IMG/VR virus record: IMGVR_UViG_3300014205_000184
Coordinates: 3,162 to 67,161 of that record
DNA length: 64,000 nucleotides
Direction: 5' to 3' (one strand)
Origin: a virus
Lineage: Duplodnaviria; Heunggongvirae; Uroviricota; Caudoviricetes
Shown here: positions 32,826-54,962 of the stretch, in pieces
How the letters are laid out: the number at the start of each line of letters is the position of its first letter
Position numbering within the stretch: position 1 is the stretch's first letter
Notes under the pieces: model-generated
Database searches by the model: none
What the model saw: the letters and a program-made list of their open reading frames with translations, nothing else
What the model was told of the DNA's origin: nothing
Program-made: the position numbers and the translations under genes

Positions 32826-32847
32826 CTATTTTTATAAAAGGAAAAAC

Positions 32848-33540
32848 ATGAGTTTAAAAAAATCACATGGGAACATGTATGACTGGGTGACACATATGCA
32901 TAGTCATTTAGGTGGTAAATGCCCACATGAATGTTCATATTGCTATGTACAAAAGAATAGATTTGGTGTTAGTGAACGCTATCAAGGTGATGTTCGTTTT
33001 TTAGATAACGAACTTAAAGTTAATTATGGTGTTGGTAATACCATATTTATTGAACACATGAATGATATGTTCGCTAAAGAAATTAAAGATGAATGGATAA
33101 TGAAGATATTAGAGCATTGTAATAAGTATAGAAACCAATATGTGTTTCAAACAAAAAATCCAATGAGAGCGAATAAGTTTATAGACTTATTCCCTAAGAA
33201 GTATCTTTTTGGTACAACAATTGAAACTAACAGAGATGTTGATGTTAGTAAAGCCCCAAAACCAATTGATAGATATAATGGTATGATGTCTTATAAACAT
33301 AAAACAGATACGTTTATAACACTAGAGCCTATATTGGACTTTGATGTAGATATTTTGTCAAAGTGGATTATAGATATAAAACCATTATTTATCAATATTG
33401 GAGCTGACAGCAAGAAATGTGGGTTAAAAGAACCTTCTGCGGATAAGATAAAAGAATTAGTTAATATCTTGCAGAAGAATGATATAGTAATAAAGAAAAA
33501 GGTTAATTTAGAAAGGATATATGAAAATACTTCAGACTAG
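32848..33540 (+). CDS. DUF5131 (phage Gp37/Gp68 family)-like protein, second paralog, with a CxxxCxxC cluster
   Basis: Carries GGKCPHECSYCYV plus TIFIEHMNDMFAKEIKDEWIMKILEHCNKYRNQYVFQTKNP, which is collinear with the 27751 paralog. Confidence 0.5.
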   Translation: MSLKKSHGNMYDWVTHMHSHLGGKCPHECSYCYVQKNRFGVSERYQGDVRFLDNELKVNYGVGNTIFIEHMNDMFAKEIKDEWIMKILEHCNKYRNQYVFQTKNPMRANKFIDLFPKKYLFGTTIETNRDVDVSKAPKPIDRYNGMMSYKHKTDTFITLEPILDFDVDILSKWIIDIKPLFINIGADSKKCGLKEPSADKIKELVNILQKNDIVIKKKVNLERIYENTSD

Positions 33541-34204
33541 ACGTGGGATAACAGAGATTAGAAATCTATTAAATTATCTTTCAGATAAAGACGCATTTAT
33601 CTGTGGTGGGTACGTGAGATATTGCGCATCACCATTAAAGAATCCAGTTGAAGCTACTGATGTTGATGTATATTGTAAAGATGAGGAAACGTTTGAGGTT
33701 CTTAAAAAGCATTTTGCTAATGTTGGTCTTGAGATAAGATATGAGAATCACATGGCTTTAACATATAAAGCTATGAAAGATGATGGGATATATTCGTATC
33801 ATCCACCTATACAGCTTATAAAACCCGTTAAAGAGGGCGCAATAGTAGCTAACGGCGATATGGGGAGTATACTTGAGAACTTCGATTTTACAGTAATACG
33901 ATGTGGACTGATTAATGCAGATAATGCTATGGTAGATGATGATTTTGAAGAAGATGAAAAGAATAAATTCTTAAGGATTAAGAATATACATTGTCCAATA
34001 TCGTCTACGTTACGTTTCATGAAGTATGCGAGAAAAGGGTATTTCACAAGACCAATGCAAGTTGTTAAATTGTTTTTAGATTGGGATGGTAGAACACCCG
34101 AGTATCGAGCGAAATTAATTGAAGGGTTGAACACTTCGGCGAGTGGTAAAGAAATGACACGGGAAGAGATTGATGAGCTAGAAGCATTATTGAGAATAGA
34201 TTAA
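33521..34204 (+). CDS. Minimal nucleotidyltransferase (pol-beta superfamily)
   Basis: Carries FICGGYVRY...ATDVDVYC, the G[GS]-x(9-13)-D-x-[DE] motif. Confidence 0.5.
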   Translation: MKILQTRRGITEIRNLLNYLSDKDAFICGGYVRYCASPLKNPVEATDVDVYCKDEETFEVLKKHFANVGLEIRYENHMALTYKAMKDDGIYSYHPPIQLIKPVKEGAIVANGDMGSILENFDFTVIRCGLINADNAMVDDDFEEDEKNKFLRIKNIHCPISSTLRFMKYARKGYFTRPMQVVKLFLDWDGRTPEYRAKLIEGLNTSASGKEMTREEIDELEALLRID

Positions 34205-34414
34205 AGTTTCGCCGTGGGTGACCCCCTGAGAATACGTTAAAGCGTAAAAGCTGGTGAAGTTTAATTTCGAGTTAAACTTAAGCTAGCCGTTACTCTTGCA
34301 TGTCAATGCCGGCGTTCGATAAGGTCTTTGCAACACTCATCAAAGACATAAAAGAAAAGGATGAGGACGGGTTAGCGGGAACGTATAAAAACCGCACCAT
34401 TAAGAAAGGTAATT

Positions 34415-35386
34415 ATGATAGAAAAACAAATGGCTGAAGAACGTAGAATATTAGAGATAATATCCGGTTCATATTTATATGGAACGCAGACTGAAACCTC
34501 TGACAAAGATTTTGTCGGAATTTTTATTCCAGACGTAGAGCATATTTTAGGATTTCAAAAATGTGAAGAAGTTGACCTATCGGTGATTGAGAAAGATTCA
34601 AGCGGTAAGAATACAGTTAATGCAGTAGACAGAAAATTTTATGAATTCAGGAAATTTATTAAACTAGCAATGGAGAACAACCCTAATATTCTTGAAATAT
34701 TGTTTGTGAATAAAGAGGACACGTTGTTTGTGAATGATTTCGGAAAAGAACTGTTAGAAATGCGTCATATGTTTCCGTATAGAGGTCTAAAAGCTAAGTT
34801 TTTAGGGTATGCGTTCAGTCAAAAGCATAAAATGGTTATTAAAAAAGATAACTATTTTAATCTTATGCTTGCATATGACTTCCTAAAGAAACAAGATAGT
34901 AGGAAGTTTCTATTAGAAGTAGTATTATCATCAATGCGACCTAATTTTATAACATTTGGGCATGATGAAGCGCATAATATAAAGAACGTTATTATAGGTG
35001 ATTTACAATTACCACCATCAAAAACAGTTCAAGAAACATTGAAAGTGTTAGAGTATCGAATGTCGAGTATCGGTAATCGTGAAGAGTTATTATTAAAATA
35101 CGGTTATGATGTGAAGTTCGGTTCCCACCTTGTGCGTCTTATGTTAGAAGGAATCGAGTTACTTAAAACTGGTGAATTAGTGTTTCCATTAAAAGAGCGT
35201 CAGATGATACTTGATATAAAGAATGGTAAGTGGGCGATGAGTAAAATATTAGATTTTAGTAATGAGTTAGAGAAAGAAATTGAAGATTTGGCAATAAGTT
35301 CTAAATTACCGAGTAGACCAAGAACTGATGAGTTAGAAGAGTTTGTTATAAATAAGTTATCTCAAATAGTAAAGGAGCGAGAATGA
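34415..35386 (+). CDS. Nucleotidyltransferase, RlaP-like (PF10127-type; RtcB-associated family)
   Basis: Carries ISGSYLYGTQTETSDKDFVGIF, the GS-x9-SDxD NTase motif. A roughly 300-aa helical remainder follows. Confidence 0.5.
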   Translation: MIEKQMAEERRILEIISGSYLYGTQTETSDKDFVGIFIPDVEHILGFQKCEEVDLSVIEKDSSGKNTVNAVDRKFYEFRKFIKLAMENNPNILEILFVNKEDTLFVNDFGKELLEMRHMFPYRGLKAKFLGYAFSQKHKMVIKKDNYFNLMLAYDFLKKQDSRKFLLEVVLSSMRPNFITFGHDEAHNIKNVIIGDLQLPPSKTVQETLKVLEYRMSSIGNREELLLKYGYDVKFGSHLVRLMLEGIELLKTGELVFPLKERQMILDIKNGKWAMSKILDFSNELEKEIEDLAISSKLPSRPRTDELEEFVINKLSQIVKERE

Positions 35387-35625
35387 TATCTTTAAAAATA
35401 ACCAAAAATGTTATGCACATAATAGCCGCAAGAATCTTAGGCGTTATATATATAACAGCATTATTTATATACTTAGCATGTTCAATAATATTAATATTGG
35501 ATAAAGAATGTTTTATTAAAGTCTTATTAGGGGTTTTAGTTTTTATACCAGTCATGAGAATGTTGTGTCATGACTTACCATTGTTTAAACAGTTTTGGAA
35601 AAACTGTTATAAGGAGATTTTATGA
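35383..35625 (+). CDS. Hypothetical membrane protein
   Basis: ATGA coupling. Two hydrophobic segments. Confidence 0.45.
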   Translation: MISLKITKNVMHIIAARILGVIYITALFIYLACSIILILDKECFIKVLLGVLVFIPVMRMLCHDLPLFKQFWKNCYKEIL

Positions 35626-35843
35626 GAATAAGAGTTGAAGAAGTGGTGAAATTTATTGTAGCTCTGATAATAGCTTTATCTGTATGTAAATTAGCTCATG
35701 CTGGTCTTGTAGATATGATGCAGAGAGAAGGGCAGACTAATCAATTAGAGTTAGATAATAAGCTTATGATTGAAAACAATAAATTATTGGAAGAGATACT
35801 GAGTGAATTAATAAAAATAAATAAAAATAGTAATAATATATGA
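35622..35843 (+). CDS. Hypothetical protein (N-terminal TM or signal anchor)
   Basis: ATGA coupling. 73 aa. Confidence 0.45.
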   Translation: MRIRVEEVVKFIVALIIALSVCKLAHAGLVDMMQREGQTNQLELDNKLMIENNKLLEEILSELIKINKNSNNI

Positions 35844-36517
35844 ACAAACGTCAGATACTTAGACAAGTTTTAAAAAAAAGATGTAAAAAGTGTCATTGTA
35901 TAATTGATGATAGAAATAAACGTGGTTTCTGTGTCAAACATACAAATTTTTCAAGAGAGAGAAATTCTTTTTGGGGGATGAAGCATAGTAAGAAAACAAA
36001 AAATATAATGAAGCAACATCATCAAGATTTTCACGGAGAAAACAATCCTTTTTTTGGTAAAAAGCATACTAGAAAATCTATTAATAAAATGCGAAAATCA
36101 CATAAGAGTAACTGGTTAAAGTATGATACTAAAAAAAGAAATAAAATATTATATAATCTTATTACATCTAGTAGAAAAACAAGAGGAACTAAAATAGAAA
36201 AAATTATATCAAATTTTTTAAATATTTTGAATATAAAACATAGAAGACATGTACAAATGGGATTATATAACGTTGATTTTTTAGTAGATAAAAAATTTAT
36301 TATAGAATGTTTTGGTGATTATTGGCATTTTAATCCAAAATTTTTCAATTCAAATAATAAAATTAAAAATAAGCATAAGAAAGATAAGATTAAAAAAGAA
36401 ATACTAATAAAGAAAGGGTATAAATATCTTGTGTTATGGGAATATGATATTAATAATCAATTTGATGTCGTAAGAAATAAAATAAGGAGTTTTTTAAATG
36501 TTAAAAATACTATCTGA
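35840..36517 (+). CDS. Free-standing homing-endonuclease-like protein (NUMOD3 DNA-binding repeats plus a Vsr/DUF559-like PD-(D/E)xK nuclease)
   Basis: Carries FWGMKHSKKTKNIMKQ and FFGKKHTRKSINKMRKS (NUMOD3). C-terminal LYNVDFLVDKKFIIECFGDYWH is the DUF559/Vsr-type D...E.K core. Confidence 0.55.
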   Translation: MNKRQILRQVLKKRCKKCHCIIDDRNKRGFCVKHTNFSRERNSFWGMKHSKKTKNIMKQHHQDFHGENNPFFGKKHTRKSINKMRKSHKSNWLKYDTKKRNKILYNLITSSRKTRGTKIEKIISNFLNILNIKHRRHVQMGLYNVDFLVDKKFIIECFGDYWHFNPKFFNSNNKIKNKHKKDKIKKEILIKKGYKYLVLWEYDINNQFDVVRNKIRSFLNVKNTI

Positions 36518-37805
36518 GAATCTAAGAATCCCGATAAAATTATGGATAAGCAATATAGAAAACGGAGCCTTGGAACAAGCATGTAACTCTGCAAATCTAC
36601 CTTTTGCATTTCATCATATTTCAATAATGCCCGACGCTCATCAGGGTTATGGCGTTCCAATTGGGTCAGTTTTAGCGACAGATAGAGTAGTAATTCCAAA
36701 CGCAGTGGGTGTGGATATAGGTTGTGGAATGTGTGCAGTAAAGACTTCACTAAAAGCTGAACAACTAGATAAAGAAACTTTAAAGACAATAATGGGCAAG
36801 ATACGAGAAGCGATACCCGTAGGTAACGATAAAGATGGTAGACACGCTAAGAAACAAGATGAAAGTTTAATGCCTGTTCCTAAAAATTTAGGAGAATATA
36901 TTACAACAGAAAATCTCTTAATAAGAGATTATCCGATAGTATCTCAACAGTACGAATCAGCATTAACACAAATTGGCACTCTGGGCGGCGGCAATCATTT
37001 CATCGAAATACAAAAAGATAAAGAAGATAATGTTTGGATAATGATACATTCAGGGAGTAGAAATTTAGGGCATAAAGTAGCAACGCATTATAATGAGTTA
37101 GCAATTAAATTAAATCGTATGTGGTGTTCATGTGTTCCTACGGAATGGGAATTAGCATTTCTTCCAATAGAAACAGAAGAAGCTAAAAGTTATATGCGTG
37201 AAATGCAATATTGTGTGGATTTTGCGTTAGCTAATAGAAGTTTAATGATGGATAGAATAATAGATGTATTTGAACAAATTTTAATAGGTTTTGGACAAAA
37301 TCAAGTCCAAAATATTATATTTTCTAAAGCTATAAACATAGCTCATAACTACGCATCTTGGGAAAATCATTTTGGGAAGAATGTAATTGTTCATCGTAAG
37401 GGTGCTACATTAGCAAGAAAAGATACTATAGGTATTATACCGGGCTCACAAGGCACGAAGAGCTATATCGTTAAAGGTCTAGGTAATGTCGATAGTTTTA
37501 TGTCGTGTAGTCATGGTGCAGGACGTCTTATGAGCAGAACAAAAGCATGTAATGAATTAAATTTAGAAGATGAGATAAAGAAGCTTGACGACCAAGGAAT
37601 TGTTCATGGTATAAGAACTAAGAATGATTTAGATGAGGCGAGTGGTGCGTATAAAGATATAGGCGAAGTAATGAATAACCAAGTTGATTTAGTGGAAATA
37701 ATAACTGAGCTTCAACCATTAGCTGTTATTAAAGCTACAACTAATAAGGTTACCACGAAGGATGTTTTAGAATATTCAAAATCTATAAGTAATTTTTTAA
37801 AATAA
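36498..37805 (+). CDS. rtcB: RtcB RNA 3'-phosphate/2',3'-cyclic phosphate ligase
   Basis: RBS AAGGAG. Carries MPDAHQGYGVPIGSV, VGVDIGCGMCAV, and GTLGGGNHFIEIQ...IHSGSRNLGHKVATHY. Confidence 0.75.
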   Translation: MLKILSENLRIPIKLWISNIENGALEQACNSANLPFAFHHISIMPDAHQGYGVPIGSVLATDRVVIPNAVGVDIGCGMCAVKTSLKAEQLDKETLKTIMGKIREAIPVGNDKDGRHAKKQDESLMPVPKNLGEYITTENLLIRDYPIVSQQYESALTQIGTLGGGNHFIEIQKDKEDNVWIMIHSGSRNLGHKVATHYNELAIKLNRMWCSCVPTEWELAFLPIETEEAKSYMREMQYCVDFALANRSLMMDRIIDVFEQILIGFGQNQVQNIIFSKAINIAHNYASWENHFGKNVIVHRKGATLARKDTIGIIPGSQGTKSYIVKGLGNVDSFMSCSHGAGRLMSRTKACNELNLEDEIKKLDDQGIVHGIRTKNDLDEASGAYKDIGEVMNNQVDLVEIITELQPLAVIKATTNKVTTKDVLEYSKSISNFLK

Positions 37806-37806
37806 T

Positions 37807-37930
37807 TTAACTCTCTGTCTCGCTAGGAGTGTTTCTTAGTAGAGATATAAACTTAGGCGAGAATCGCCTCTCGATGGGCATACTGATACAATCCTGCCAC
37901 CTAAGTGCTGAAGGGATTGCAGAGAGTTAA
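37807..37930 (+). other. Structured intergenic element immediately downstream of rtcB, closed by an 11-bp long-range stem (candidate ncRNA)
   Basis: TTAACTCTCTG (37807-37817) pairs with CAGAGAGTTAA (37920-37930). Internal hairpins include GGCGA-gaa-TCGCC. Further stems (GTGAG...CTCAC, CCGA...TCGG) continue to 38030. The 250-nt gap has no ORF. Confidence 0.4.
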
Positions 37931-38055
37931 AGTTTCCAGTAGCACCGCAAGGGAAGGCTCTTGTCTAGACTACTAGTGTGTTGACCGAGCATGAATGGGA
38001 AGTGAGAGCACCTCACATCGGTCCCGTATTTAAAACAAGAAAGATGAGGTGAATT

Positions 38056-38532
38056 ATGGAGATTAAGATTGAACTTAACAAAGATGAAATGTTGAAGTTA
38101 TGTGAGAAAGATAAAAACTTTCAAGTCTATATTCAACAAGCGGCGCTTAATTATTTAAGAAACTGTAAGTTAAAACCGTTAATGAGAGATGAGATTGTGA
38201 GAGAGGTTGAGCAATATAAAAATGATTTAAAGAGGCATGTTAAAGAAATTCTTCCTCAAATGGGTATAACTCGCGGAAGTGGATGGAATAATAATTCGAT
38301 ATATCTAAGTGAAGAACTTGGGAGAGATATACGTGCAAAAATTATTCAAGAGATGGAATTTATAATAACTGATATTGTTAGTAAAGAATTATCTAAAGTA
38401 TCAAAAAAAATGGACGAAGATATAAAAATGTGGAATTCTCATATAGAACGTAAATGTAAGGATAGTATAACATCTAAAACCATAGAAAACATAGCAAAGT
38501 CGGTTATAGAGGAAAAATTTAAAGGAAAATAA
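38056..38532 (+). CDS. Hypothetical protein
   Basis: RBS AAGATGAGGTG. 158 aa. Confidence 0.55.
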   Translation: MEIKIELNKDEMLKLCEKDKNFQVYIQQAALNYLRNCKLKPLMRDEIVREVEQYKNDLKRHVKEILPQMGITRGSGWNNNSIYLSEELGRDIRAKIIQEMEFIITDIVSKELSKVSKKMDEDIKMWNSHIERKCKDSITSKTIENIAKSVIEEKFKGK

Positions 38533-38533
38533 T

Positions 38534-39547
38534 ATGAATTGTGCTGAAATATGTTTTGAAGTTGCAAAGATAATACCCGAATCTTTTTTGGTAGGTGGAG
38601 CTGTACGAGATACACTGCTCAATAAAGAACCAAAAGATTTTGATTTTGCGACGCCTCTATCCCCAGATGAAATAGAAACCGCTATACAGAATTCTGGTAG
38701 ACATGCGTACTCAATCGGAAAACGTTTCGGGACTGTGGGAGTTAAAATAAACGGAATTATGGTTGAAATAACAACGTTTCGTTCTGAGAAATATGAAGAA
38801 GGAAATCGTAAACCACAAGTTGAGTTTGTGAAAGATATAAACTCTGACTTATCTAGACGGGACTTTACCATAAACGCTATGGCTAGAACAGTCCTACCCG
38901 AAAGAGAGTTCATAGACTTGTTTAATGGGCAAGAGGATATGAAGAATAAGGTTATACGATGCGTTGGGAAGCCCAAGGACAGATTTAAAGAAGACCCGTT
39001 ACGTATGCTTCGAGTAGCACGTTTCATGTCCCAATTAGAGTTTGAGGTACATCCAGACACAGAGGAAACAGCGTTTGAGATGAGTTATAAGATATTAGAA
39101 GTAAGTAAAGAGAGATGGTGTCTTGAGTTAGATAAGCTACTTATGACATTAAAACCTAGTTTAGGGCTTGATTTTATGATGAGAACAAGACTTATGAACT
39201 TTATGATACCAGAACTATCTTTACAGTATAGCTATAATCAAAACTCCCCGTATCATAGCCGTGATTTGTGGGAGCATACGAAATATGTTGTAGATAATGT
39301 AGGATGTGATATAATGTTACGTTGGGCGGCACTCTTGCATGATATAGCGAAACCTTTTGTTAGATATGATAACAACAAGGGGTATAGCAATTACCTCAAA
39401 CATGACATGTTAGGTAAAGAAATGGTTATACGTCTTGCGTATTATCTTAAATGGTCAAATGAACGGCGTGAAGTAGTGAGTAATTTGGTGTTAAATCATA
39501 TGCTAGACACATCGCCGCTTAAAGAAGCTGATGAGAAAGGGAAATAA
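38534..39547 (+). CDS. cca: CCA-adding tRNA nucleotidyltransferase (class II) with a C-terminal HD domain
   Basis: Carries LVGGAVRDTLLNKEPKDFDFAT, RRDFTINAMA, and the HD motif AALLHDIAKPF. Confidence 0.7.
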   Translation: MNCAEICFEVAKIIPESFLVGGAVRDTLLNKEPKDFDFATPLSPDEIETAIQNSGRHAYSIGKRFGTVGVKINGIMVEITTFRSEKYEEGNRKPQVEFVKDINSDLSRRDFTINAMARTVLPEREFIDLFNGQEDMKNKVIRCVGKPKDRFKEDPLRMLRVARFMSQLEFEVHPDTEETAFEMSYKILEVSKERWCLELDKLLMTLKPSLGLDFMMRTRLMNFMIPELSLQYSYNQNSPYHSRDLWEHTKYVVDNVGCDIMLRWAALLHDIAKPFVRYDNNKGYSNYLKHDMLGKEMVIRLAYYLKWSNERREVVSNLVLNHMLDTSPLKEADEKGK

Positions 39548-39915
39548 TGAAAGTAAAAATAAAGCACGAAAATATTCTTAGAGCGATTGATTATCTTGAG
39601 AGGATAGGGTGGTTAATAAAAGGAGAAGATGCTCTAGAAGATAAAAAAGCTGTTAAAGAATTTGCGAAAGCTGTGGCTATAGCGTCTATAGACATAGAAG
39701 TAGATATAGATATGATAGGTATTATTAAAAAGGAGATTGACATGAGACCCAAAAAGAAACGGTCAGACCACACTTGTGGGGAATGTTCGTATAGAGATTT
39801 GGGGACAGATACGCATTACGTGTGTCACAATAATCTAATTAAGAAGTTGGCGGGTAGAAATGTTGTGAGAGTAAACAAAAATAGAAATCATTGCGTAGCG
39901 TTTAAGAGTAAGTAA
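39547..39915 (+). CDS. Hypothetical protein (C-terminal CGEC...C.H zinc-binding-like)
   Basis: TAATG coupling. 122 aa. Confidence 0.5.
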   Translation: MKVKIKHENILRAIDYLERIGWLIKGEDALEDKKAVKEFAKAVAIASIDIEVDIDMIGIIKKEIDMRPKKKRSDHTCGECSYRDLGTDTHYVCHNNLIKKLAGRNVVRVNKNRNHCVAFKSK

Positions 39916-39925
39916 AGGAGAGAGA

Positions 39926-40543
39926 ATGAAGATAATAAAACCAAGCGTTGAGTTACTTTGGGCAACACCCAATGCTATTGAAGCAATTGAAAGAGCCGGG
40001 AGAACGTGCTATAAGTCAGAAGATAAAATTACTGAGGATAGCGCAAATAAGTTTGTGGAGATGTTAATAAAGCGTGGTCATGAAGCTATGATAGAACATG
40101 CTTCGGCTTCATTGTTGTTTGTTTGTGATAGAGGTGTAACACATGAAATAGTACGACACAGGATGGCAAGTTACGCACAAGAAAGCACCAGATACTGTTC
40201 TTACGCTAGTGCAAAATTTGGAAGTGAAATAACGGTGATTGAACCACCAGATTTAACAATGCCTCAGTATGAAGTTTGGGAAGCTAGTATGAATGAGAGC
40301 GAACAATCATATTTAGATTTAATTAAATTAGGAGTTACTCCGCAAATAGCAAGAGGTGTTTTACCTAATAGTCTTAAAACAGAGATTGTTGTTACAGCTA
40401 ACTTTAGAGAGTGGAGACATATATTTAAGTTACGAACAGCGAAAACAGCTCATCCTCAAATGAGGGAAGTAATGAATATAGCGTTTGATATGTTAGTTAA
40501 AGAATTCCCGATTGTATTCGCTGATTTAAAACAGGAGATATAA
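39926..40543 (+). CDS. thyX: Flavin-dependent thymidylate synthase (ThyX-like)
   Basis: Carries the ThyX signature VRHRMASYAQESTRY (RHR-x7-S). Confidence 0.65.
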   Translation: MKIIKPSVELLWATPNAIEAIERAGRTCYKSEDKITEDSANKFVEMLIKRGHEAMIEHASASLLFVCDRGVTHEIVRHRMASYAQESTRYCSYASAKFGSEITVIEPPDLTMPQYEVWEASMNESEQSYLDLIKLGVTPQIARGVLPNSLKTEIVVTANFREWRHIFKLRTAKTAHPQMREVMNIAFDMLVKEFPIVFADLKQEI

Positions 40544-40709
40544 TGGAAATTATAATTGATGAACCGCAAATAAAAGAAGCGATACTTTGTTATTTAATAA
40601 CAAAAGGATACCCATTTGGTGATGGGGTTTATTCTCCCAATGATATAAAAATGGTTGTGAGTCAAGTTGATTATAGGGTTTCAGCAGAAATTGAGGTGAA
40701 AGATAAATG
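40544..40709 (+). CDS. Hypothetical small protein
   Basis: TAATG coupling. 54 aa. Confidence 0.4.
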
Positions 40710-41408
40710 AAACATTTCGTGATAGGCGATATACACGGCGGTTATAAATCTATGATGCAGTGTTTTGAACGAGCAAAGTTTAACTATGAAGAAGACGAAC
40801 TTATCGTTCTAGGAGACGTTGTAGATGGATGGCCTGATACGTATAAATGCGTAGAAGAACTTCTTAAAGTTAAAAACCTAATATTAATATTAGGTAACCA
40901 CGACGCTTGGGCATTAGAGTGGTTTTTATATTCTGATGCTCCTTCACTTTGGACTGGGCAAGGCGGTTGGGCGACGATACATTCATATAACAATGCGGAG
41001 AATATATGTGTTCCACAATCGCATATAGACTTTTTCAGAAACGCTGTTTACGCTTATGTAGATGATAAGACAAATACACTGTTCGTTCATGGCGGTATCG
41101 ATTGCGATAAAGATATAACAGAACAGTCAACGGAACGAATGATGTGGGATAGAGAGTTACTTGAATGCGCATATTGGAGACATAAAGAAAATCCTAAATA
41201 TAAGTTCTCTAAGTATAATGAAATATATGTTGGGCACACAACAACGTTCTATTTTCAAACAGATAAACCTATGTTCGTGTGTAATGTCATAGGCGCCGAC
41301 ACGGGCGGGGGCTACGAGGGATATCTTACGATAATAGACCGAGACACGAAACAATACTGGCAATCGGACAAGTTAGATTCACTATACCCAGGTGTAAAAG
41401 GGAGATAA
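40707..41408 (+). CDS. PPP-family Ser/Thr phosphatase / ApaH-like metallophosphoesterase
   Basis: Carries GDIHGGY, GDVVDGWPD, and GNHDAW, the GDxHG...GDxVDRG...GNHE motifs. Confidence 0.65.
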   Translation: MKHFVIGDIHGGYKSMMQCFERAKFNYEEDELIVLGDVVDGWPDTYKCVEELLKVKNLILILGNHDAWALEWFLYSDAPSLWTGQGGWATIHSYNNAENICVPQSHIDFFRNAVYAYVDDKTNTLFVHGGIDCDKDITEQSTERMMWDRELLECAYWRHKENPKYKFSKYNEIYVGHTTTFYFQTDKPMFVCNVIGADTGGGYEGYLTIIDRDTKQYWQSDKLDSLYPGVKGR

Positions 41409-41409
41409 T

Positions 41410-41619
41410 ATGAATTGTTTGCTGATTAAAAAATGGATATTATGTAATATATATGATAGACATGCATGGATGCATCTTGGAGCGAGGACTTTATACGGAG
41501 AACGTATAGAAGAGTGCCCATGGTGTAAACGTATGAGATATGATGTTGATGATAAAAAGCGTGAAAAGTTTAGAGAAGAACTATATAGTAAATTAAAAGA
41601 AATGTGGAGTAAGAAATGA
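41410..41619 (+). CDS. Hypothetical protein
   Basis: TAATATG coupling. 69 aa. Carries CPWCK. Confidence 0.45.
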   Translation: MNCLLIKKWILCNIYDRHAWMHLGARTLYGERIEECPWCKRMRYDVDDKKREKFREELYSKLKEMWSKK

Positions 41620-41759
41620 AACATAATTTTACATCTTTATATGATATGCGCCATTTCGCAGAGGATAAGTTGGACCATCCTGGAGACCGACTTAAGTTTT
41701 TTGGATGGACGGAGACATTCGGCTCTACATCTGGTCCGTGTGGTGGTTATGGTGGCTAA
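41616..41759 (+). CDS. Hypothetical small protein
   Basis: ATGA coupling. 47 aa. Confidence 0.35.
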   Translation: MKHNFTSLYDMRHFAEDKLDHPGDRLKFFGWTETFGSTSGPCGGYGG

Positions 41760-41762
41760 ACT

Positions 41763-41888
41763 ATGACAGAGTTTGACGTAATTGCGTTTCTTGACCCGTT
41801 CACTCACAATGTCGTTATGTTTTGTTCTGATGAATGGAAGATTGTAAGAGGTGTGAAACCATCTAAAATACTAAGGTGGAATTTATGA
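41763..41888 (+). CDS. Hypothetical small protein
   Basis: 41 aa. ATGA-coupled to the next gene. Confidence 0.3.
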   Translation: MTEFDVIAFLDPFTHNVVMFCSDEWKIVRGVKPSKILRWNL

Positions 41889-42046: not shown

Positions 42047-42337
42047 ATGGAAAATACAAACAAAAGTATTTATTTATTAAAAGAACTAGAAAATGTTGTA
42101 AGAAAATCAATGAAAAGTCAATCTTCAATGTTCCTTAGCGATGAAACAGCTATGGATTATGTTCGAGTAGATGGGTTGCTTGATTTTGAAGTGATTGCAC
42201 GGACAATATATGACTTTTATATCGCTAGAGGCGTGAGATTAATGAAAGATATGTCCGTAAAAAGTATTTATTTTGATGTTGATAAAAATGATATATATAC
42301 AAGTGGTTATAATCAAGCTATGGTAGATATAAATTAA
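42047..42337 (+). CDS. Hypothetical protein
   Basis: TAAATG coupling. 96 aa. Confidence 0.5.
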   Translation: MENTNKSIYLLKELENVVRKSMKSQSSMFLSDETAMDYVRVDGLLDFEVIARTIYDFYIARGVRLMKDMSVKSIYFDVDKNDIYTSGYNQAMVDIN

Positions 42338-42352
42338 AACTATAAGGTAATT

Positions 42353-42673
42353 ATGAAAAAAGATAAAATTAGAAAAAGAACTCTAGATGAAGCGGAAAAT
42401 ATTATTAAAGACTTACAACAAAAACTTTGGGCAAGAGATAAGGTATTAAGTAATATGCGAATGGCTTTATATTATGCAAAAAAGTTTTTGAAAGAAGTTG
42501 AATGCGAGTTAGATGGTATGTGGTATCACGGTATAGATGGTTCTGATTTACTTGTTTCTAAAGACGAATTATTTGACACTGTGCAGAATAAAATAATAAC
42601 GGCAAAATTAGTCCGAGGGATGAATGTAATAGATAAACCATTATTAGAACTTAAACAGTTTATAGGATGGTGA
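42353..42673 (+). CDS. Hypothetical protein
   Basis: 106 aa. Confidence 0.5.
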   Translation: MKKDKIRKRTLDEAENIIKDLQQKLWARDKVLSNMRMALYYAKKFLKEVECELDGMWYHGIDGSDLLVSKDELFDTVQNKIITAKLVRGMNVIDKPLLELKQFIGW

Positions 42674-42677
42674 TAAA

Positions 42678-43055
42678 ATGATACCTACGCAGTATGAGAC
42701 AAATGAGTGCATAGAAGAAGTAGAGATACGTTGTCCTACTTGTCATAGCAATAATACGCAATTAGATGATAAAGCTGATTCTAATGATATTAGAGAATGG
42801 TATTTATGTTTAGAGTGTGGAACGGTTTTCATAAATAACCATGATGACAATATTAAATGTTGTAAAATGAGCAATAGAATAGATTACGCTATTAACCAAC
42901 TAGAAATAAAGGGCAATGGTTCAAACACGGCTATACAGTTAGCTATCGCCGCATTAATGGTAATGAAAGATATGGAAAATAACCCAGACATAAGTACGAT
43001 TGATGGAAAGTTTTGGATTGATAAGTTCAATTCATATATAAAAGGGGATAAATGA
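42678..43055 (+). CDS. Zinc-ribbon protein whose C-terminal domain is paralogous to the 43462 gene
   Basis: Carries CPTCHS...CLECG. The C-terminus ends ...DKFNSYIKGDK. Confidence 0.5.
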   Translation: MIPTQYETNECIEEVEIRCPTCHSNNTQLDDKADSNDIREWYLCLECGTVFINNHDDNIKCCKMSNRIDYAINQLEIKGNGSNTAIQLAIAALMVMKDMENNPDISTIDGKFWIDKFNSYIKGDK

Positions 43056-43270
43056 AAATATCAGATGCTAGAAAATTATGTAAAAAAATGTTAGATGATA
43101 GAGAATTGTCTAAAGATGGATTAGCAAAACAGGAAAGACGAGATAAAGTTGGACTACACTTTTATGTAATACAAGAAATACGTCATGCAGGGTATGCAAA
43201 GTTTACTAGTTATGATGGAGATACAGTAGCTTGCCCTAAACATACTAGCGTAAGAAGAATAGTGGTGTAA
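43052..43270 (+). CDS. Hypothetical protein
   Basis: ATGA coupling. 72 aa. Confidence 0.5.
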   Translation: MKISDARKLCKKMLDDRELSKDGLAKQERRDKVGLHFYVIQEIRHAGYAKFTSYDGDTVACPKHTSVRRIVV

Positions 43271-43298
43271 TAACCACAGATTGTAATTATGATAAAAA

Positions 43299-43436
43299 AT
43301 GGAATATTATATTGTGATTTTTGTGAACAAGAGATGGGCAAAGCACTTGAGATAAAAGAATATCCCGATGGTATATTCTGTTCAGATGAATGTCGTTATG
43401 AATTTGAAACGGGCCATCCCGGAGAAGAATACTAAC
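43299..43436 (+). CDS. Hypothetical small zinc-ribbon protein
   Basis: Carries CDFCEQ...CSDECR. 45 aa. Confidence 0.35.
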
Positions 43437-43461
43437 TGAAATCAGAGAGGAAAGAGCGAGT

Positions 43462-43668
43462 ATGAATAAAATTGAAAGCGCAGTAAAGTTTTTCTCAACA
43501 TATCCATTTTTTATTGGTAATGATGATGTTGGTGGAACTGCTCTTGCGGCGTTGATGATTATAGAAGATATAGAAAAGCAAAAAGATAATATAAGTGGAG
43601 GACATTTCGATTTAAATAGTAAAGAGATTCTTGATAAATTCAATTCATATATGAAAGGAGATAAGTAA
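43462..43668 (+). CDS. Hypothetical protein (paralog of the C-terminal domain of the 42678 gene)
   Basis: Shares TALAALMIIEDIE... and ends ...DKFNSYMKGDK. Confidence 0.45.
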   Translation: MNKIESAVKFFSTYPFFIGNDDVGGTALAALMIIEDIEKQKDNISGGHFDLNSKEILDKFNSYMKGDK

Positions 43669-43925
43669 TGAGTACCGAGTATCGAGTTCCAGATGAAATA
43701 AAGCGTGTCCCGAAGTTATGTATGGACTGTGTGTGGTCAGAAGTTGATTCTTTAGGAAATTGGAGTCAAAAATGTTTTAACCCCAAAGTTGTTATGAAAG
43801 ACCATTGGGCTTTAGCGCATAATCGTGGTGGTCAACCTTATGGCTCTGATTGTAGTGAAGAACGAAGCAAGTTACTTTTTGCTCCGTGTGGACAAAAAGG
43901 CAAACTTTGGGAGAAACGACCATAA
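43668..43925 (+). CDS. Hypothetical protein
   Basis: TAATG coupling. 85 aa. Confidence 0.5.
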   Translation: MSTEYRVPDEIKRVPKLCMDCVWSEVDSLGNWSQKCFNPKVVMKDHWALAHNRGGQPYGSDCSEERSKLLFAPCGQKGKLWEKRP

Positions 43926-43936
43926 GGAGTTATAAC

Positions 43937-44185
43937 ATGGGCATGTTCGATAGTATATATTTTAACTGTACTTGCGGTGAAGAGTTAGAAGCTCAAAGTA
44001 AGAGTGGAGATTGTTGCCTTAACTGTTATCCTAATACATCAGTACCAATAAGTGTTGCTATAGACGCTAATAGACATTCTCCGTATAAGTGCAAGTGTGG
44101 TAAAGAGTGGGAGTTTGATGAAAGTGTAATTCCTAAACAAAATATGCATATTAATCTACCAATTAAAGAGGTTGTATGCGAATAA
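43937..44185 (+). CDS. Hypothetical zinc-ribbon protein
   Basis: RBS AAGGAG. Carries CTCGEE...CLNC...CKCGKE. Confidence 0.5.
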   Translation: MGMFDSIYFNCTCGEELEAQSKSGDCCLNCYPNTSVPISVAIDANRHSPYKCKCGKEWEFDESVIPKQNMHINLPIKEVVCE

Positions 44186-44335
44186 AAATATGGGGGACTG
44201 AAGGGATATTATATAGAAGTCTTGCTGTTGTCGTGTACTTCTTAGCTCCATTGCTTATTTGGATATATTTAATTGCAGAATGGTTATATAAAAAATCTAA
44301 AATAAGATACTTATTAAAGAAATTCAAAGGAAAAC

Positions 44336-44476
44336 ATGTTAGGTAAAAGTTTAATGTATCTTTTATTAGCGCAGTATGTTATAATAACGATTGTGTTCAT
44401 ATGTGAAAGACAATGGAATAAAGTATTATATTGGGTAGGTGCGGGAATGATACAATGGTCAGTAATTAAAATGTAG
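44336..44476 (+). CDS. Hypothetical small membrane peptide
   Basis: 46 aa with a hydrophobic core. Confidence 0.3.
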   Translation: MLGKSLMYLLLAQYVIITIVFICERQWNKVLYWVGAGMIQWSVIKM

Positions 44477-44485
44477 AAAGGAGTT

Positions 44486-44914
44486 ATGCAAACATTTCTT
44501 CCATATAAAAATTTCAATAAAACAGCTCGTTGCTTAGATTATCGTAGACTAGGAAAACAGCGTGTTGAGGCATGGCAAATATATCAAGCTATTAACGGTC
44601 AATCCGGGTGGCGTAATCATCCAATAGTTAAAATGTGGAGCAAATATAAAAATGCGTTATTGATTTATGGTATGACAATGTGCATTGAGTGGAGTAACCG
44701 TGGTTATGAAGACAACATGTATAGTAGATTTCACCACGAACTAATGCGAAATCTTGAAATTTGTAAAGAACGAGTTGAATTTCCTAAATGGATGTATAAA
44801 AATAAGTTCATAAGAAGTCACAGAAGTAATCTTTTGAGAAAAAATAAAGAGTATTATAGTAAGTTTAAGTGGGTCGTACCCGATAACTTACCATATTACT
44901 GGGAAAGGAGTTAA
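44486..44914 (+). CDS. Conserved hypothetical protein
   Basis: RBS AAAGGAG. 142 aa. The N-terminus is MQTFLPYKNFNKTARCLDYRRLGKQRVEAWQI. Confidence 0.55.
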   Translation: MQTFLPYKNFNKTARCLDYRRLGKQRVEAWQIYQAINGQSGWRNHPIVKMWSKYKNALLIYGMTMCIEWSNRGYEDNMYSRFHHELMRNLEICKERVEFPKWMYKNKFIRSHRSNLLRKNKEYYSKFKWVVPDNLPYYWERS

Positions 44915-44916
44915 TC

Positions 44917-45789
44917 ATGGCCTATATGCACATAGATAACCTCTACAAGAATCAAACGATACTAATGTTTAAAAGGTGTTACGCAATGGAGAAGATACAC
45001 GGAACAAGCGCACACATATCATGGCGTAATGGTGAAACTGTTCAGCTTAGATTCTTTTCTGGTGGGTGTAATTACGAAAATTTTGTAAAGCTATTTAACC
45101 AAGAGTTCTTAACTGAAAAGTTTAAAGAAATAGGTGTAGAGGATATTATAGTTTTCGGTGAAGCTTATGGCGGTAAACTTCAAGGCATGTCACATACATA
45201 TGGTAAAGACTTGAAATTTGTTGCTTTTGATGTTAAAATCGGCGATTGTTGGTTAAACGTTCCAAAAGCAGAAGCGATAGCAAAGCAATTGGGGCTTGAG
45301 TTTGTTCACTATGTAGAATCAAGTACGGATATCGAAGAGTTAGATAAACTTAGAGATAGTACATCTATACAAGGCGTTCGTAATGGTGTTAATACCTCAG
45401 AGCCAGCTGAGGGCATTGTATTACGCCCTCTTGAAGAATTCAGAACGAATAACGGTGAGCGTGTCATAGCGAAGCATAAGAATGATTTGTTCAAAGAGCG
45501 TGAACATCAACCTAAAGTTACTGGTGAAAAGCTTGAAATATTAACTGAAACAAATAAAGTAGCTGATGAATGGGTTACAGAAATGCGGCTATCGCATATT
45601 CTCGGTAAAATGCAAAGCTATAGCATAAACGATACGCCAGAGATAATTAAAACTATGATTGAAGACGTGAGTAGAGAGGCTAAAGGAGAGATAATTGAGA
45701 ATAAAGATGTGAGAAAAGCTATTGGTAAGAAGACGGCTATTATGTTTAAGCAAAGATTACAAGATGCGTTACATGCAAACACGAACTAA
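44917..45789 (+). CDS. ATP-dependent RNA ligase, Rnl2-like (covalent nucleotidyltransferase superfamily)
   Basis: Motif I MEKIHGTSAH (KxHGT), motif III IIVFGEAYGG, motif IV FVAFDV, and motif V EGIVLRP...VIAKHKN. Confidence 0.65.
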   Translation: MAYMHIDNLYKNQTILMFKRCYAMEKIHGTSAHISWRNGETVQLRFFSGGCNYENFVKLFNQEFLTEKFKEIGVEDIIVFGEAYGGKLQGMSHTYGKDLKFVAFDVKIGDCWLNVPKAEAIAKQLGLEFVHYVESSTDIEELDKLRDSTSIQGVRNGVNTSEPAEGIVLRPLEEFRTNNGERVIAKHKNDLFKEREHQPKVTGEKLEILTETNKVADEWVTEMRLSHILGKMQSYSINDTPEIIKTMIEDVSREAKGEIIENKDVRKAIGKKTAIMFKQRLQDALHANTN

Positions 45790-54960: not shown

Positions 54961-54962
54961 CC

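What the first reader, a model, noticed from the sequence alone, without database searches (positions are those of the whole stretch)
32848..45789. Dispersed RNA-repair toolkit (RtcB, CCA-adding enzyme, Rnl2-like ligase, RlaP-like and minimal NTases, phosphoesterases, two DUF5131 proteins)
Within about 13 kb the phage encodes the following:
- RtcB (36498-37805)
- a class II CCA-adding enzyme with an HD domain (38534-39547)
- an Rnl2-family RNA ligase (44917-45789)
- an RlaP/PF10127-like nucleotidyltransferase (34415-35386)
- a second minimal nucleotidyltransferase (33521-34204)
- a PPP-family phosphatase (40707-41408)
- two DUF5131 paralogs (27751-28323 and 32848-33540)

The paralog at 32848 has a radical-SAM-like CxxxCxxC cluster. 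The unusual structured RNAs described above lie in the same region.

Taken together this suggests a multi-pathway tRNA healing and sealing system. Such a system would counter host anticodon nucleases or toxin RNases. The tRNA-like RNAs could be its substrates, decoys, or cofactors.
Basis: partly seen in the sequence, partly recalled or inferred. Interest (0 to 1): 0.55.

Follow-up and report, generated by a model that had tools for sequence, protein, structure and literature searches.

The report
Phage RNA-repair gene cluster, partly overstated
An uncultivated phage of about 130 kb really does carry four RNA end-repair enzymes (RtcB, RlaP, a CCA-adding enzyme and an Rnl2-like ligase) within 11 kb.

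Summary
Every ORF named in the finding exists at its stated coordinates. Four are solid RNA-repair enzymes:
- RtcB (36498-37805), with all catalytic residues intact.
- RlaP (34415-35386), translationally coupled to RtcB.
- A class II CCA-adding enzyme with an HD domain (38534-39547).
- An Rnl2-like ligase with the Rnl2 C-terminal domain (44917-45789).

Phage kits of exactly this make-up are already described (Iyer et al. 2021, PMC7824862).

The periphery does not hold up as RNA repair:
- 27751-28323 is GP88, not DUF5131, and is not a paralog of 32848-33540 (hhalign probability 2.3%).
- DUF5131 is a radical-SAM enzyme whose closest fold is spore photoproduct lyase.
- The 227-aa protein is a minimal CCA/PAP-type nucleotidyltransferase of the Gad2 (anti-Gabija) Pfam family. 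Its homologs sit among replication genes.
- The PPP phosphatase is lambda-PPase/ApaH-like.
- No polynucleotide kinase was found.
- ThyX, DenV and a homing endonuclease are interspersed.

Homologs of the peripheral genes in 62 viral loci are not linked to RNA-repair genes.

The "tRNA-like RNAs" are real. Two copies in the window and three homologs elsewhere share a covarying acceptor stem, a D arm and a T arm around a variable core, and they lack an encoded CCA. Neither Rfam nor ARAGORN recognises them.

Verdict: new member of a known kind, modest interest.

The parts
34415..35386 (+). RlaP-family Pol-beta nucleotidyltransferase. It is the first gene of a run of overlapping ORFs that ends with RtcB.
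   Evidence: PF10127 4.5e-17. phrog_388 'nucleotidyltransferase' 4.4e-66 over the full length. GS...DKD motif read in the translation. RlaP lies within 10 kb of RtcB in 7 of 80 related viral loci.
35383..35843 (+). Two small ORFs (80 and 73 aa; hydrophobic on reading the sequence) between RlaP and the endonuclease gene. Each overlaps its neighbour by 4 nt.
   Evidence: Coordinates, translations. No family hits were sought for them.
35840..36517 (+). Free-standing NUMOD3 + Vsr/DUF559-type homing-endonuclease-like gene. It overlaps the RtcB start by 20 nt.
   Evidence: PF07460 8.6e-6 and PF04480 4.9e-5. A homolog sits directly upstream of RtcB, with RlaP further upstream, in L055. A paralog lies at 58834-59547.
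36498..37805 (+). RtcB 3'-phosphate/5'-OH RNA ligase.
   Evidence: PF01139 6.4e-116, profile positions 1-425 of 426. The alignment to P. horikoshii RtcB 4dwr conserves DxGCG, GNHF, HSGSR, AHN and SHGAGR. 700 phage records carry a homolog.
38534..39547 (+). Class II CCA-adding enzyme (head, neck and HD domains).
   Evidence: PF01743 5e-36, PF12627 7e-10, PF01966 1e-7. TIGR02692 2.5e-81, below the equivalog cut-off. GGAVRD, DFDF, RRDFT, EDPLR and HD motifs read.
44917..45789 (+). Rnl2-like ATP-dependent RNA ligase. It starts 3 nt after the stop of DenV.
   Evidence: PF09414 1.2e-14. phrog_548 7.6e-33. TIGR02307 9e-16 over profile positions 82-315 of 326. T4 Rnl2 2hvq aligned through motif V and the C-terminal domain; motif I EKIHGT present.
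33521..34204 (+). Minimal class II (CCA/PAP-type) nucleotidyltransferase, head and neck only, of Pfam family PF26128 'Gad2'. Its membership of the RNA-repair set is not supported.
   Evidence: Precomputed PF26128 hit. More than 500 homologs with invariant CGGY.R...D.D, NFDF and IHCP motifs. AF2 model pLDDT 91.7. Foldseek top hits are PAP I 3aql, A-adding 1vfg and CCA enzymes. Neighbours in 47 viral loci are replication genes.
32848..33540 (+). DUF5131 radical-SAM enzyme. It overlaps the next gene by 20 nt. A link to RNA repair is not supported.
   Evidence: PF07505 1.7e-7. Invariant C25, C29 and C32. Model pLDDT 90.3; top fold match is spore photoproduct lyase 4fhg (E 1.2e-4, TMq 0.60). Some sources name homologs 'DNA repair photolyase'. 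No RNA-repair neighbours in 15 viral loci.
40707..41408 (+). Lambda-PPase/ApaH/PrpA-like binuclear metallophosphatase, in one gene run with CCA and ThyX. A role as an RNA 3'-end phosphatase is possible but untested.
   Evidence: PF00149 3e-16. phrog_246 NinI-like 1e-45. PDB 1g5b 1e-7. ApaH 5e-17 and PrpA 2e-14, both below cut-offs. Found near RtcB in only 1 of 80 loci.
27751..28323 (+). GP88-family protein with Cys clusters. It is not DUF5131 and not a paralog of 32848-33540.
   Evidence: PF17338 3.4e-32 with no DUF5131 hit. BLAST E=7. hhalign probability 2.3%.
32590..32826 (+). tRNA-like RNA 1: 7-bp acceptor stem, U8 G9, D arm, a core of about 160-190 nt, T arm, no encoded CCA. It lies immediately upstream of DUF5131.
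   Evidence: Fold z-score -2.4. Only the T arm matches the Rfam tRNA model. Scan results. Acceptor covariation across 5 family members. Deleting 157 nt gives an ARAGORN tRNA-Leu(CAA).
37806..38055 (+). GC-rich (45%) structured intergenic region between RtcB and the CCA gene run. Nature unknown.
   Evidence: GC content. (13-bp closing stem, z-score -2.3). No Rfam match. No sequence homolog in 129 loci apart from the phage's own contigs.

Best explanation
The window is the early / nucleic-acid-metabolism arm of an uncultivated phage of about 130 kb and 33% GC. The host is presumably bacterial.

Inside this arm, four genes form a genuine RNA end-repair set of a kind already catalogued in large phages.

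Inferred mechanism:
- Host anticodon nucleases or toxin RNases leave 2',3'-cyclic-phosphate (or 3'-phosphate) and 5'-OH ends. RtcB seals such ends directly, using GTP.
- RlaP is co-transcribed with RtcB. It adds back one or two nucleotides to trimmed 3'-OH ends.
- The CCA-adding enzyme rebuilds damaged tRNA 3' CCA ends. Its HD domain may remove 2',3'-cyclic or 3'-phosphates.
- The Rnl2-like ligase seals 3'-OH/5'-phosphate nicks in duplex regions.

The genes are organised as three separate overlapping-ORF runs:
- RlaP > two small ORFs > endonuclease > RtcB.
- u158 (the unassigned ORF 38056-38532) > CCA > u122 (39547-39915) > ThyX > u55 (40543-40710) > phosphatase.
- DenV > Rnl2.

They are not one operon.

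The remaining genes the finding lists are independent accessory genes that happen to lie in the same variable region. These are DUF5131, GP88, the Gad2-family minimal NTase, the lambda-PPase-like phosphatase and the small phosphoesterase.

What is shown: gene identities, catalytic motifs, folds, gene overlaps and neighbourhood statistics. What is inferred: every substrate and the anti-nuclease role.
For: Family assignments with intact catalytic motifs.

Gene overlaps of 4-20 nt from RlaP to RtcB, and adjacent or overlapping genes (no more than 10 nt apart) from 38056 to 41619.

RlaP is the one partner that recurs near RtcB in independent viral contigs: 7 of 80 loci. L014 keeps RlaP, the phosphoesterase, CCA and RtcB within 10 kb, and L017 has CCA next to RtcB.

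Literature:
- Phage kits combining RtcB, Rnl1/Rnl2, RlaP, CCA enzyme and phosphoesterases are described, with this same interpretation (PMC7824862 section 3.4.9).
- RlaP adds 1-2 NMP to damaged RNA 3' ends and restores aminoacylation of repaired tRNA (PMC12776372).

The phage has canonical tRNA genes with encoded CCA about 8 kb upstream of the window. The CCA enzyme is therefore not needed for their primary maturation, which favours a repair role.
Against: No experiment bears on this phage.

No polynucleotide 5'-kinase or other dedicated healing enzyme was found in about 60 ORFs scanned across the 64 kb; only a dNMP kinase turned up. The Rnl2 branch therefore lacks its usual feeder.

The CCA and Rnl2 proteins score below NCBIfam equivalog cut-offs.

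Co-localisation is loose. Non-RNA genes (ThyX, DenV, the endonuclease) are interleaved, and most claimed partners are absent near RtcB in relatives.

The host and its nucleases are unknown.
Confidence: 0.65

Rival explanations
1. The enzymes serve RNA biogenesis rather than repair. They would process the phage's own tRNA-like RNAs (RNA1 at 32590-32826 and RNA2 at 5110-5358). The CCA enzyme would add the CCA that these RNAs lack. RtcB (with RlaP) would rejoin the halves after the large central insert is excised, making this a protein-dependent tRNA-splicing-like pathway in a bacterial virus.
For: RNA1 and RNA2 have tRNA-type acceptor, D and T arms but no encoded CCA, whereas the phage's canonical tRNAs encode CCA.

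Removing one contiguous insert gives ARAGORN-valid tRNAs: 157 nt from RNA1 and 171 nt from RNA2.

The inserts are not recognised as group I introns.

Related viral contigs carry tRNA genes with inserts. ARAGORN in intron mode makes 14 of its 117 calls with an insert. Rfam tRNA hits L111 7902-8029 and L054 8034-8179 both contain inserts. L034 17210-17385 lies inside a tRNA array.

RNA1 lies 1.6 kb upstream of RlaP.
Against: No splicing endonuclease was found.

The splice boundaries chosen by brute force obey the group I rule of U at -1 and a terminal G. [quoted passage not shown]

The shortest family member (L270, 105 nt) is not a tRNA even when introns are allowed. This suggests a tRNA-like RNA family rather than split tRNAs.

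Homologous RNAs occur in contigs that share no proteins with the window. The 13.4 kb around the L270 copy has no RNA-repair genes.
Confidence: 0.12
2. There is no functional system. The block is a hypervariable accessory region where unrelated counter-defence and repair genes accumulate, each acting alone. The Gad2-family NTase would act against Gabija-like defence. DUF5131 and DenV would repair UV-type DNA lesions. ThyX would serve dTMP supply. The ApaH/lambda-PPase-like enzyme would act on Ap4A, Np4-capped RNA or phosphoproteins. RtcB, RlaP, CCA and Rnl2 would be independent acquisitions.
For: Neighbourhoods of the NTase homologs (47 loci) and DUF5131 homologs (15 loci) contain no recurrent RNA-repair genes.

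No megablast match to any of 50,697 phage records, and only distant, non-syntenic relatives in IMG/VR.

The DUF5131 fold is nearest to spore photoproduct lyase.

PF26128 is named after an anti-Gabija protein.

Homing endonucleases and an intein mark the region as mobile-element-rich.
Against: The RlaP-to-RtcB overlap chain and its recurrence in 7 of 80 loci argue that at least this pair is a functional unit.

Four RNA-end enzymes within 11.4 kb is the pattern reported for phage RNA-repair kits.
Confidence: 0.4
3. The ligases act mainly on DNA or on DNA-RNA junctions, as part of the surrounding DNA-repair and replication functions (DenV, RuvB-like, SNF2, RusA, PdeM-like phosphoesterase).
For: The Rnl2-like gene directly follows DenV. 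The small phosphoesterase resembles the ligase-associated DNA-damage-response enzyme PdeM. Many DNA-metabolism genes surround the block.
Against: The RtcB, RlaP, CCA and Rnl2 families are all characterised as RNA-specific: RlaP accepts only RNA (PMC12776372), and PF09414 and TIGR02307 are RNA-ligase families. No DNA-ligase-specific domains were found.
Confidence: 0.05

Closest known systems
Phage RNA-repair kits catalogued by Burroughs & Aravind 2016 and Iyer et al. 2021 (RtcB and/or Rnl1/Rnl2 + RlaP + CCA-adding enzyme + phosphoesterases/PNK + phage tRNAs)
   Same: The same enzyme families in one phage. RlaP is adjacent to an RNA ligase. A CCA enzyme is present. Calcineurin-like and HD phosphoesterases are present. 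The phage also carries tRNA genes.
   Different: No polynucleotide kinase, HAD phosphatase, 2H or cRec phosphoesterase was detected in the 64 kb. The genome is about 130 kb, below the jumbo-phage range, and has no close sequenced relative.
Bacterial rtcBA / RlaP operons (Pseudomonas rtcB-rlaP-rtcA; E. coli rtcBA)
   Same: RtcB and RlaP are encoded in one co-directional unit.
   Different: No RtcA cyclase and no RtcR regulator. The gene order is RlaP first, with two small ORFs and a homing-endonuclease-like gene inserted before RtcB.
T4 Pnk-Rnl1 anti-PrrC healing-and-sealing pathway, and T4 Rnl2
   Same: An ATP-dependent ligase with the Rnl2 motif I lysine and C-terminal domain. T4 also encodes an RlaP (NrdC.11).
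   Different: No Pnk or Rnl1 homolog was found. The sequence scores far below the Rnl2 equivalog cut-off (58 against 197 bits).
Gad2 (Gabija anti-defence 2, PF26128)
   Same: The 227-aa protein carries a precomputed PF26128 hit and has a nucleotidyltransferase fold, as predicted for Gad2.
   Different: It is 227 aa against about 400 aa. There is no BLAST-level similarity to any record in the phage collection. The anti-Gabija function is untested, and the mechanism of Gad2 itself is unknown.
tRNA genes with divergent group I introns (Patescibacteria); T4 stable RNAs C/D and bacterial Y RNA (YrlA) tRNA-like modules
   Same: RNA1 and RNA2 have tRNA-like ends, escape ARAGORN and RF00028, and allow splice boundaries with U(-1) and a terminal G. 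The link between tRNA-like RNAs and RtcB loci is a known theme, from my own knowledge of the Salmonella rsr-yrlBA-rtcBA operon.
   Different: No group I core was detected. The shortest homolog cannot be turned into a tRNA. No Ro/TROVE protein was found. The topology, with the RNA ends in the acceptor stem, differs from YrlA.

Membership tests
RtcB RNA ligase (PF01139) | Full-length match to the family profile above the curated cut-off | tested here: met
   388.5 bits against a cut-off of 27; profile positions 1-425 of 426.
RtcB RNA ligase (PF01139) | Metal-binding Asp/Cys/His residues and the His nucleophile (P. horikoshii D95, C98, N202/H203, H234, H329, H404) | tested here: met
   The alignment to 4dwr shows GVDIGCGM, GGGNHFIE, IHSGSRNLGH, AHN and SCSHGAGR. 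The residue numbering is from my own knowledge.
RtcB RNA ligase (PF01139) | GTP-dependent joining of 3'-P/2',3'>P and 5'-OH RNA ends | not testable with these tools
   Needs biochemistry.
RlaP (PF10127) | Pol-beta NTase domain match with the G[GS]...DxD motif | tested here: met
   63 bits against a cut-off of 23, though only profile positions 21-144 of 249. phrog_388 matches over the full length at 4e-66. 'SGSYLYGT...SDKDF' read.
RlaP (PF10127) | Genomic association with an RNA ligase gene | tested here: met
   Same overlapping gene run as RtcB. The association recurs in 7 of 80 RtcB loci.
Class II CCA-adding enzyme | Head domain with GGxVRD, DxD, RRD and EDxxR motifs plus the neck (RNA-binding) domain | tested here: met
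   PF01743 at 124 bits and PF12627 at 39 bits. Motifs read.
Class II CCA-adding enzyme | Score above an NCBIfam equivalog cut-off, which would separate CCA-adding from A-adding, CC-adding and poly(A) polymerase enzymes | tested here: not met
   The best hit, TIGR02692, scores 273.7 bits against a cut-off of 438.8. PcnB also hits at 8e-44. The specificity (CCA, A or poly(A)) is therefore inferred, not established.
Rnl2 RNA ligase family | Covalent nucleotidyltransferase domain with the motif I lysine (KxxG) | tested here: met
   PF09414 at 55 bits against a cut-off of 27. 'EKIHGT' aligns with T4 Rnl2 'EKIHGT'.
Rnl2 RNA ligase family | Rnl2-specific C-terminal domain | tested here: met
   Query residues 163-261 align to T4 Rnl2 residues 203-304. 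TIGR02307 is covered over positions 82-315 of 326.
Rnl2 RNA ligase family | Equivalog-level score (TIGR02307) | tested here: not met
   58.3 bits against a cut-off of 197. 'Rnl2-like' is the safe label.
DUF5131 / radical SAM (for 32848-33540) | PF07505 match, a conserved CxxxCxxC motif and a radical-SAM partial TIM-barrel fold | tested here: met
   31.4 bits against a cut-off of 28.9. C25, C29 and C32 are invariant. Foldseek hits are SPL, LipA, SuiB and RlmN.
DUF5131 (for 27751-28323) | Any detectable homology to PF07505 or to 32848-33540 | tested here: not met
   Only PF17338 GP88 hits. BLAST E=7. hhalign probability 2.3%.
Gad2 (PF26128) for 33521-34204 | Match to the family profile | tested here: inconclusive
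   The hit is listed only among the precomputed Pfam hits. The local Pfam copy returns nothing, and tblastn against 50,697 phage records finds nothing.
Gad2 (PF26128) for 33521-34204 | Inhibition of Gabija defence | not testable with these tools
   Needs infection assays.
Heal-and-seal pathway (T4 Pnk-Rnl1 / Pnkp-Hen1 type) | A polynucleotide 5'-kinase partnered with the ATP-dependent ligase | tested here: not met
   None found among about 60 ORFs scanned with Pfam; the only P-loop kinase is a dNMP kinase at 54933-55466. The roughly 66 kb of the phage outside the window were only partly seen.
PPP / lambda-phosphatase family (40707-41408) | Metallophos domain with GDxHG, GDxxDxG and GNH[DE] motifs | tested here: met
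   PF00149 at 60.7 bits. 'IGDIHGG', 'LGDVVDGW' and 'GNHD' read. Full-length match to 1g5b.
Group I intron (for the inserts in RNA1 and RNA2) | Match to the catalytic-core covariance model RF00028 | tested here: not met
   No hit at E<=10 in 300-nt searches. Divergent tRNA introns are known to escape this model.
tRNA (for RNA1 and RNA2) | Complete cloverleaf recognised by ARAGORN or Rfam RF00005 | tested here: not met
   No genes found, even with the intron option. Only the T arm matches RF00005, at 13.6 bits.

The most novel reading that the evidence does not exclude
The phage encodes a previously undescribed family of tRNA-like RNAs. They share acceptor, D and T arms around a variable core of about 50-200 nt, with no anticodon arm and no encoded CCA. 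Two copies lie in this window, and three homologs lie in contigs that share no proteins with it.

These RNAs could be the dedicated clients of the adjacent enzymes. One possibility is CCA-tagged decoys or sponges for host anticodon nucleases that RtcB and RlaP keep resealing. Another is split tRNAs matured by a protein-dependent splicing route in a bacterial virus.
Probability: 0.1. Interest if true: 0.75.

Novelty: new member of a known kind. Interest (0 to 1): 0.3.

Why it matters
Phage RNA repair is a recognised counter-defence against host tRNA-cleaving immunity. This phage adds a divergent example from an unsampled lineage, with RtcB at most 68% identical to any IMG/VR relative.

The useful outcome here is a corrected parts list. 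Four genes are credible RNA-repair enzymes. Five others should not be annotated as such.
- One of them belongs to the anti-Gabija Gad2 family and has a CCA-enzyme-like fold. That hints at an RNA or nucleotide substrate for Gad2.
- Another is a radical-SAM enzyme closest in fold to spore photoproduct lyase.

The tRNA-like RNA family is the one element that could turn out to be new biology.

Tried and rejected
- ARAGORN (with and without introns, and in tmRNA mode) and Rfam at gathering and at E<=10 found no known RNA in the block or in the RNA1/RNA2 stretches.
- The tmRNA reading of RNA1 was rejected. There is no G3:U70, I could read no tag ORF in the sequence, and neither ARAGORN nor Rfam gives a hit.
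- A bulge-helix-bulge (archaeal intron) reading was not supported by inspection of the junctions.
- blastn and nhmmer of ten intergenic regions (the five in the block among them) against 129 loci found only the phage's own contigs.
- Megablast of the block against phages found nothing.
- tblastn of the minimal NTase against phages found nothing.
- Burroughs & Aravind 2016 could not be read because it is not held.
- I tried to walk the 130-kb contig beyond the window end. Two look-ups failed and one gave 10 kb of minus-strand genes without tRNAs.
- The first D-arm pattern scan of viral contigs was mostly chance matches: 1 real hit in 120.
- Enrichment of the small phosphoesterase near RtcB (11 of 80 loci) was rejected as evidence, because its rate near unrelated NTase loci is similar (4 of 47).
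- The idea that RtcB's 22 non-conserved C-terminal residues signal an intron was dropped, because the catalytic core aligns to the end of P. horikoshii RtcB.

Full report
**Context.** The window has 33% GC and strong positive GC skew, and almost every gene is on the + strand up to about 61.8 kb. It carries phage-type genes:
- a primase-MCM helicase fusion, an SNF2 helicase, RusA, a RuvB-like ATPase and an integrase-like protein;
- an intein-containing DNA methylase, peptide deformylase and a dNMP kinase.

Identical proteins lie on a 78-kb Logan contig, on JGI contigs of sample 3300037067, and on a 130,247-bp ENA contig. On that ENA contig the window spans roughly 13.3-77.3 kb. There is no megablast match among 50,697 phage records. 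The closest IMG/VR RtcB is 68% identical, and synteny with the related loci is poor.

**Observation.** All eight ORFs the finding names are present at the stated coordinates.

*RtcB (36498-37805).* It matches PF01139 end to end (6e-116). It aligns to the P. horikoshii structure with every metal-binding residue and the nucleophile histidine conserved.

*CCA-adding enzyme (38534-39547).* It has the PolyA_pol head, the RNA-binding neck and an HD domain. Its best NCBIfam hits are CCA enzymes (2.5e-81), but it is below equivalog cut-offs and PcnB also hits.

*Rnl2-like ligase (44917-45789).* It matches PF09414, phrog_548 and TIGR02307. It aligns to T4 Rnl2 through motif V and the C-terminal domain, and has the motif I lysine.

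*RlaP (34415-35386).* PF10127 and phrog_388 at 4e-66.

*Phosphatase (40707-41408).* A binuclear metallophosphatase, closest to lambda PPase, ApaH and PrpA.

*DUF5131 (32848-33540).*
- The CxxxCxxC motif is invariant.
- A confident model (pLDDT 90.3) is nearest to spore photoproduct lyase, followed by other radical-SAM enzymes.
- This matches the placement of DUF5131 next to SPL in RadicalSAM.org (PMC9477430) and the name 'DNA repair photolyase' that some sources give homologs.

*Minimal NTase (33521-34204).*
- It has no hit in the local Pfam copy, but it carries a precomputed PF26128 'Gad2' hit.
- It belongs to a family of more than 500 metagenomic proteins with an invariant GG...DxD motif.
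- Its model (pLDDT 91.7) matches the head and neck of class II CCA/A-adding enzymes and of E. coli PAP I.
- It also matches small uncharacterised phage nucleotidyltransferases.

*The one wrong item.* 27751-28323 is GP88 (PF17338). It has no detectable relation to DUF5131.

**Organisation.** The genes do not form one operon.
- Overlaps of 4-20 nt link RlaP, two small ORFs, a NUMOD3/Vsr-type endonuclease gene and RtcB.
- A second run, with gaps of no more than 10 nt, links an unknown 158-aa ORF, CCA, a 122-aa ORF, ThyX, a 55-aa ORF, the phosphatase and a 69-aa ORF.
- The Rnl2-like gene directly follows DenV.
- These runs are separated by intergenic regions of 190-270 nt. Four of them are clearly richer in GC (39-45%) than the genome, and some fold better than shuffled controls.

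**Comparative test of the 'toolkit'.**
- Within 10 kb of 80 RtcB homologs in viral contigs, a profile search found RlaP in 7 loci and the small phosphoesterase in 11. CCA was found in 1 (plus a fragment in L017), Rnl2 in 1, the PPase in 1, DUF5131 in 1, GP88 in 2 and the minimal NTase in none.
- The phosphoesterase is about as common near unrelated loci (4 of 47), so it carries no signal.
- In 47 loci holding a homolog of the minimal NTase, the recurrent neighbours are primase, helicases, a RecA-like protein and DNA polymerase.
- In 15 loci holding a DUF5131 homolog there is no recurrent partner and no RNA-repair gene.

Only the RtcB-RlaP pair therefore behaves as a conserved unit. L055 even keeps the endonuclease-like gene between them.

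**Missing part.** No polynucleotide kinase, HAD phosphatase, 2H phosphoesterase, archease, Hen1 or Ro protein was detected in about 60 ORFs scanned across the window. The Rnl2 branch therefore has no identified 5'-kinase. The HD domain and the lambda-PPase-like enzyme are candidate 3'-end healers by analogy only. That analogy rests on my own knowledge of the phosphoesterase activities of the E. coli Cca HD domain and of the C. thermocellum Pnkp / lambda phosphatase.

**Literature.** Iyer et al. 2021 describe phage kits that combine RtcB, Rnl1/Rnl2, RlaP, CCA-adding enzymes, calcineurin-like or HD phosphatases and phage tRNAs. They interpret these kits as counter-measures to host tRNA cleavage. 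RlaP was recently shown to add 1-2 nucleotides to damaged RNA 3' ends. Gad2 is an anti-Gabija protein with a predicted nucleotidyltransferase fold and an unknown mechanism.

**The RNAs.**
- At 32590-32826, just upstream of DUF5131, lies an RNA with a 7-bp acceptor stem, U8 G9, a D arm (GCGUU...GAAAACGC), a T arm (GCAGGUUCAAAUCCUGC) and no CCA. These ends enclose about 160-190 nt.
- A second copy with the same D-arm sequence lies at 5110-5358.
- Pattern scans recovered homologs of 105, 157 and 206 nt in a metagenome contig and two viral contigs that share no proteins with the window.
- Across the five RNAs, all 35 acceptor-stem cells pair. Six of the seven positions covary, while the D arm is invariant. 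Acceptor pairing was part of the selection, so the pairing itself is partly circular. The co-occurrence of motif, T arm and complementary ends is still far above chance by my estimate (about 0.1 false positives expected in 115 loci).
- Deleting one insert gives ARAGORN-valid tRNAs with group-I-compatible boundaries. Divergent tRNA group I introns are known to escape RF00028 and ARAGORN.
- Against that, the 105-nt member cannot be made into a tRNA.
- The 13.4 kb around the L270 copy holds no RNA-repair genes.
- The phage's canonical tRNAs (Pro, Met) encode their CCA.

I conclude that the RNAs are real and unclassified. Any link to the enzymes is untested.

**Verdict.** The block is a new, divergent member of a known kind of phage RNA-repair kit. 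The claims about DUF5131, GP88, the minimal NTase and the phosphatases as parts of that kit are not supported.

Noticed in passing
window 32590-32826 and 5110-5358; L270 (about 105 nt, minus strand, D arm at 12304-12328); L180 1271-1427; L314 (206 nt, minus strand): A family of tRNA-like RNAs that is absent from Rfam and invisible to ARAGORN. Members share a covarying 7-bp acceptor stem, U8 G9, a conserved D arm (GCGUU-N6-7-GAAAACGC) and a T arm. None has an encoded CCA, and the central domain of 52-200 nt cannot be aligned between members. They may be tRNAs interrupted by divergent introns, or a new class of tRNA-like RNA.
   Followed up: partly
window 34205-34414, 37806-38055, 41620-41875: Intergenic regions with 41-45% GC in a 33% GC genome. 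37806-38055 has a 13-bp closing stem, a fold z-score of -2.3, and an internal 56-nt element with a perfect 7-bp acceptor-like stem. There is no Rfam match and no homolog in the loci fetched up.
   Followed up: partly
window 29102-29670: The small metallophosphoesterase (phrog_547, PdeM-like) is frameshifted. Its N-terminal 'MNYFFTSDHHL' with the metal-binding DxH motif is in one frame and ends in a stop. The rest (IGHYNIIRYCNRPFK...) continues in the frame of the 29194 ORF. Homologs in L066, L014 and L028 are continuous, and the Logan contig has the same sequence as the window. It is a pseudogene, a programmed frameshift or an assembly error.
   Followed up: partly
window 18053-21182: A 465-aa protein with no family hit is followed by a JAB-like protein (a weak Prok-JAB hit) and a ThiF/E1-like protein. 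This looks like a possible ubiquitin-like conjugation or deconjugation module in the phage.
   Followed up: no
window 23604-25439: An N6/N4 DNA methyltransferase interrupted by an intein that carries HNH and HTH domains.
   Followed up: no
window 35840-36517 and 58834-59547; L055 9336-9980: Two paralogous Vsr/DUF559-type (one also NUMOD3) endonuclease genes. The one that overlaps the RtcB start has a homolog in the same position, between RlaP and RtcB, in a distant viral contig. That is unusual for a purely selfish homing endonuclease.
   Followed up: partly
L021, L028-L030, L034 17210-17385, L054 8034-8179, L088-L092, L111 7768-8029: Viral contigs fetched through RtcB or the minimal NTase carry tRNA genes with inserts of 34-188 nt (14 of 117 ARAGORN calls in intron mode). 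One lies inside a tRNA array. None of the seven loci scanned with Rfam is flagged as a group I intron.
   Followed up: partly
window 33521-34204 (family A1): The Gad2-family minimal NTase has more than 500 metagenomic homologs at 50-65% identity. Even so, tblastn finds no hit in 50,697 deposited phage genomes. The family ends in a near-invariant C-terminal '...LEALMRID'.
   Followed up: partly
window 14339-14887: A phage-encoded peptide deformylase fused to a C-terminal SEC-C zinc motif. Together with sigma-70 region 4 proteins and RusA, it points to a bacterial host.
   Followed up: no
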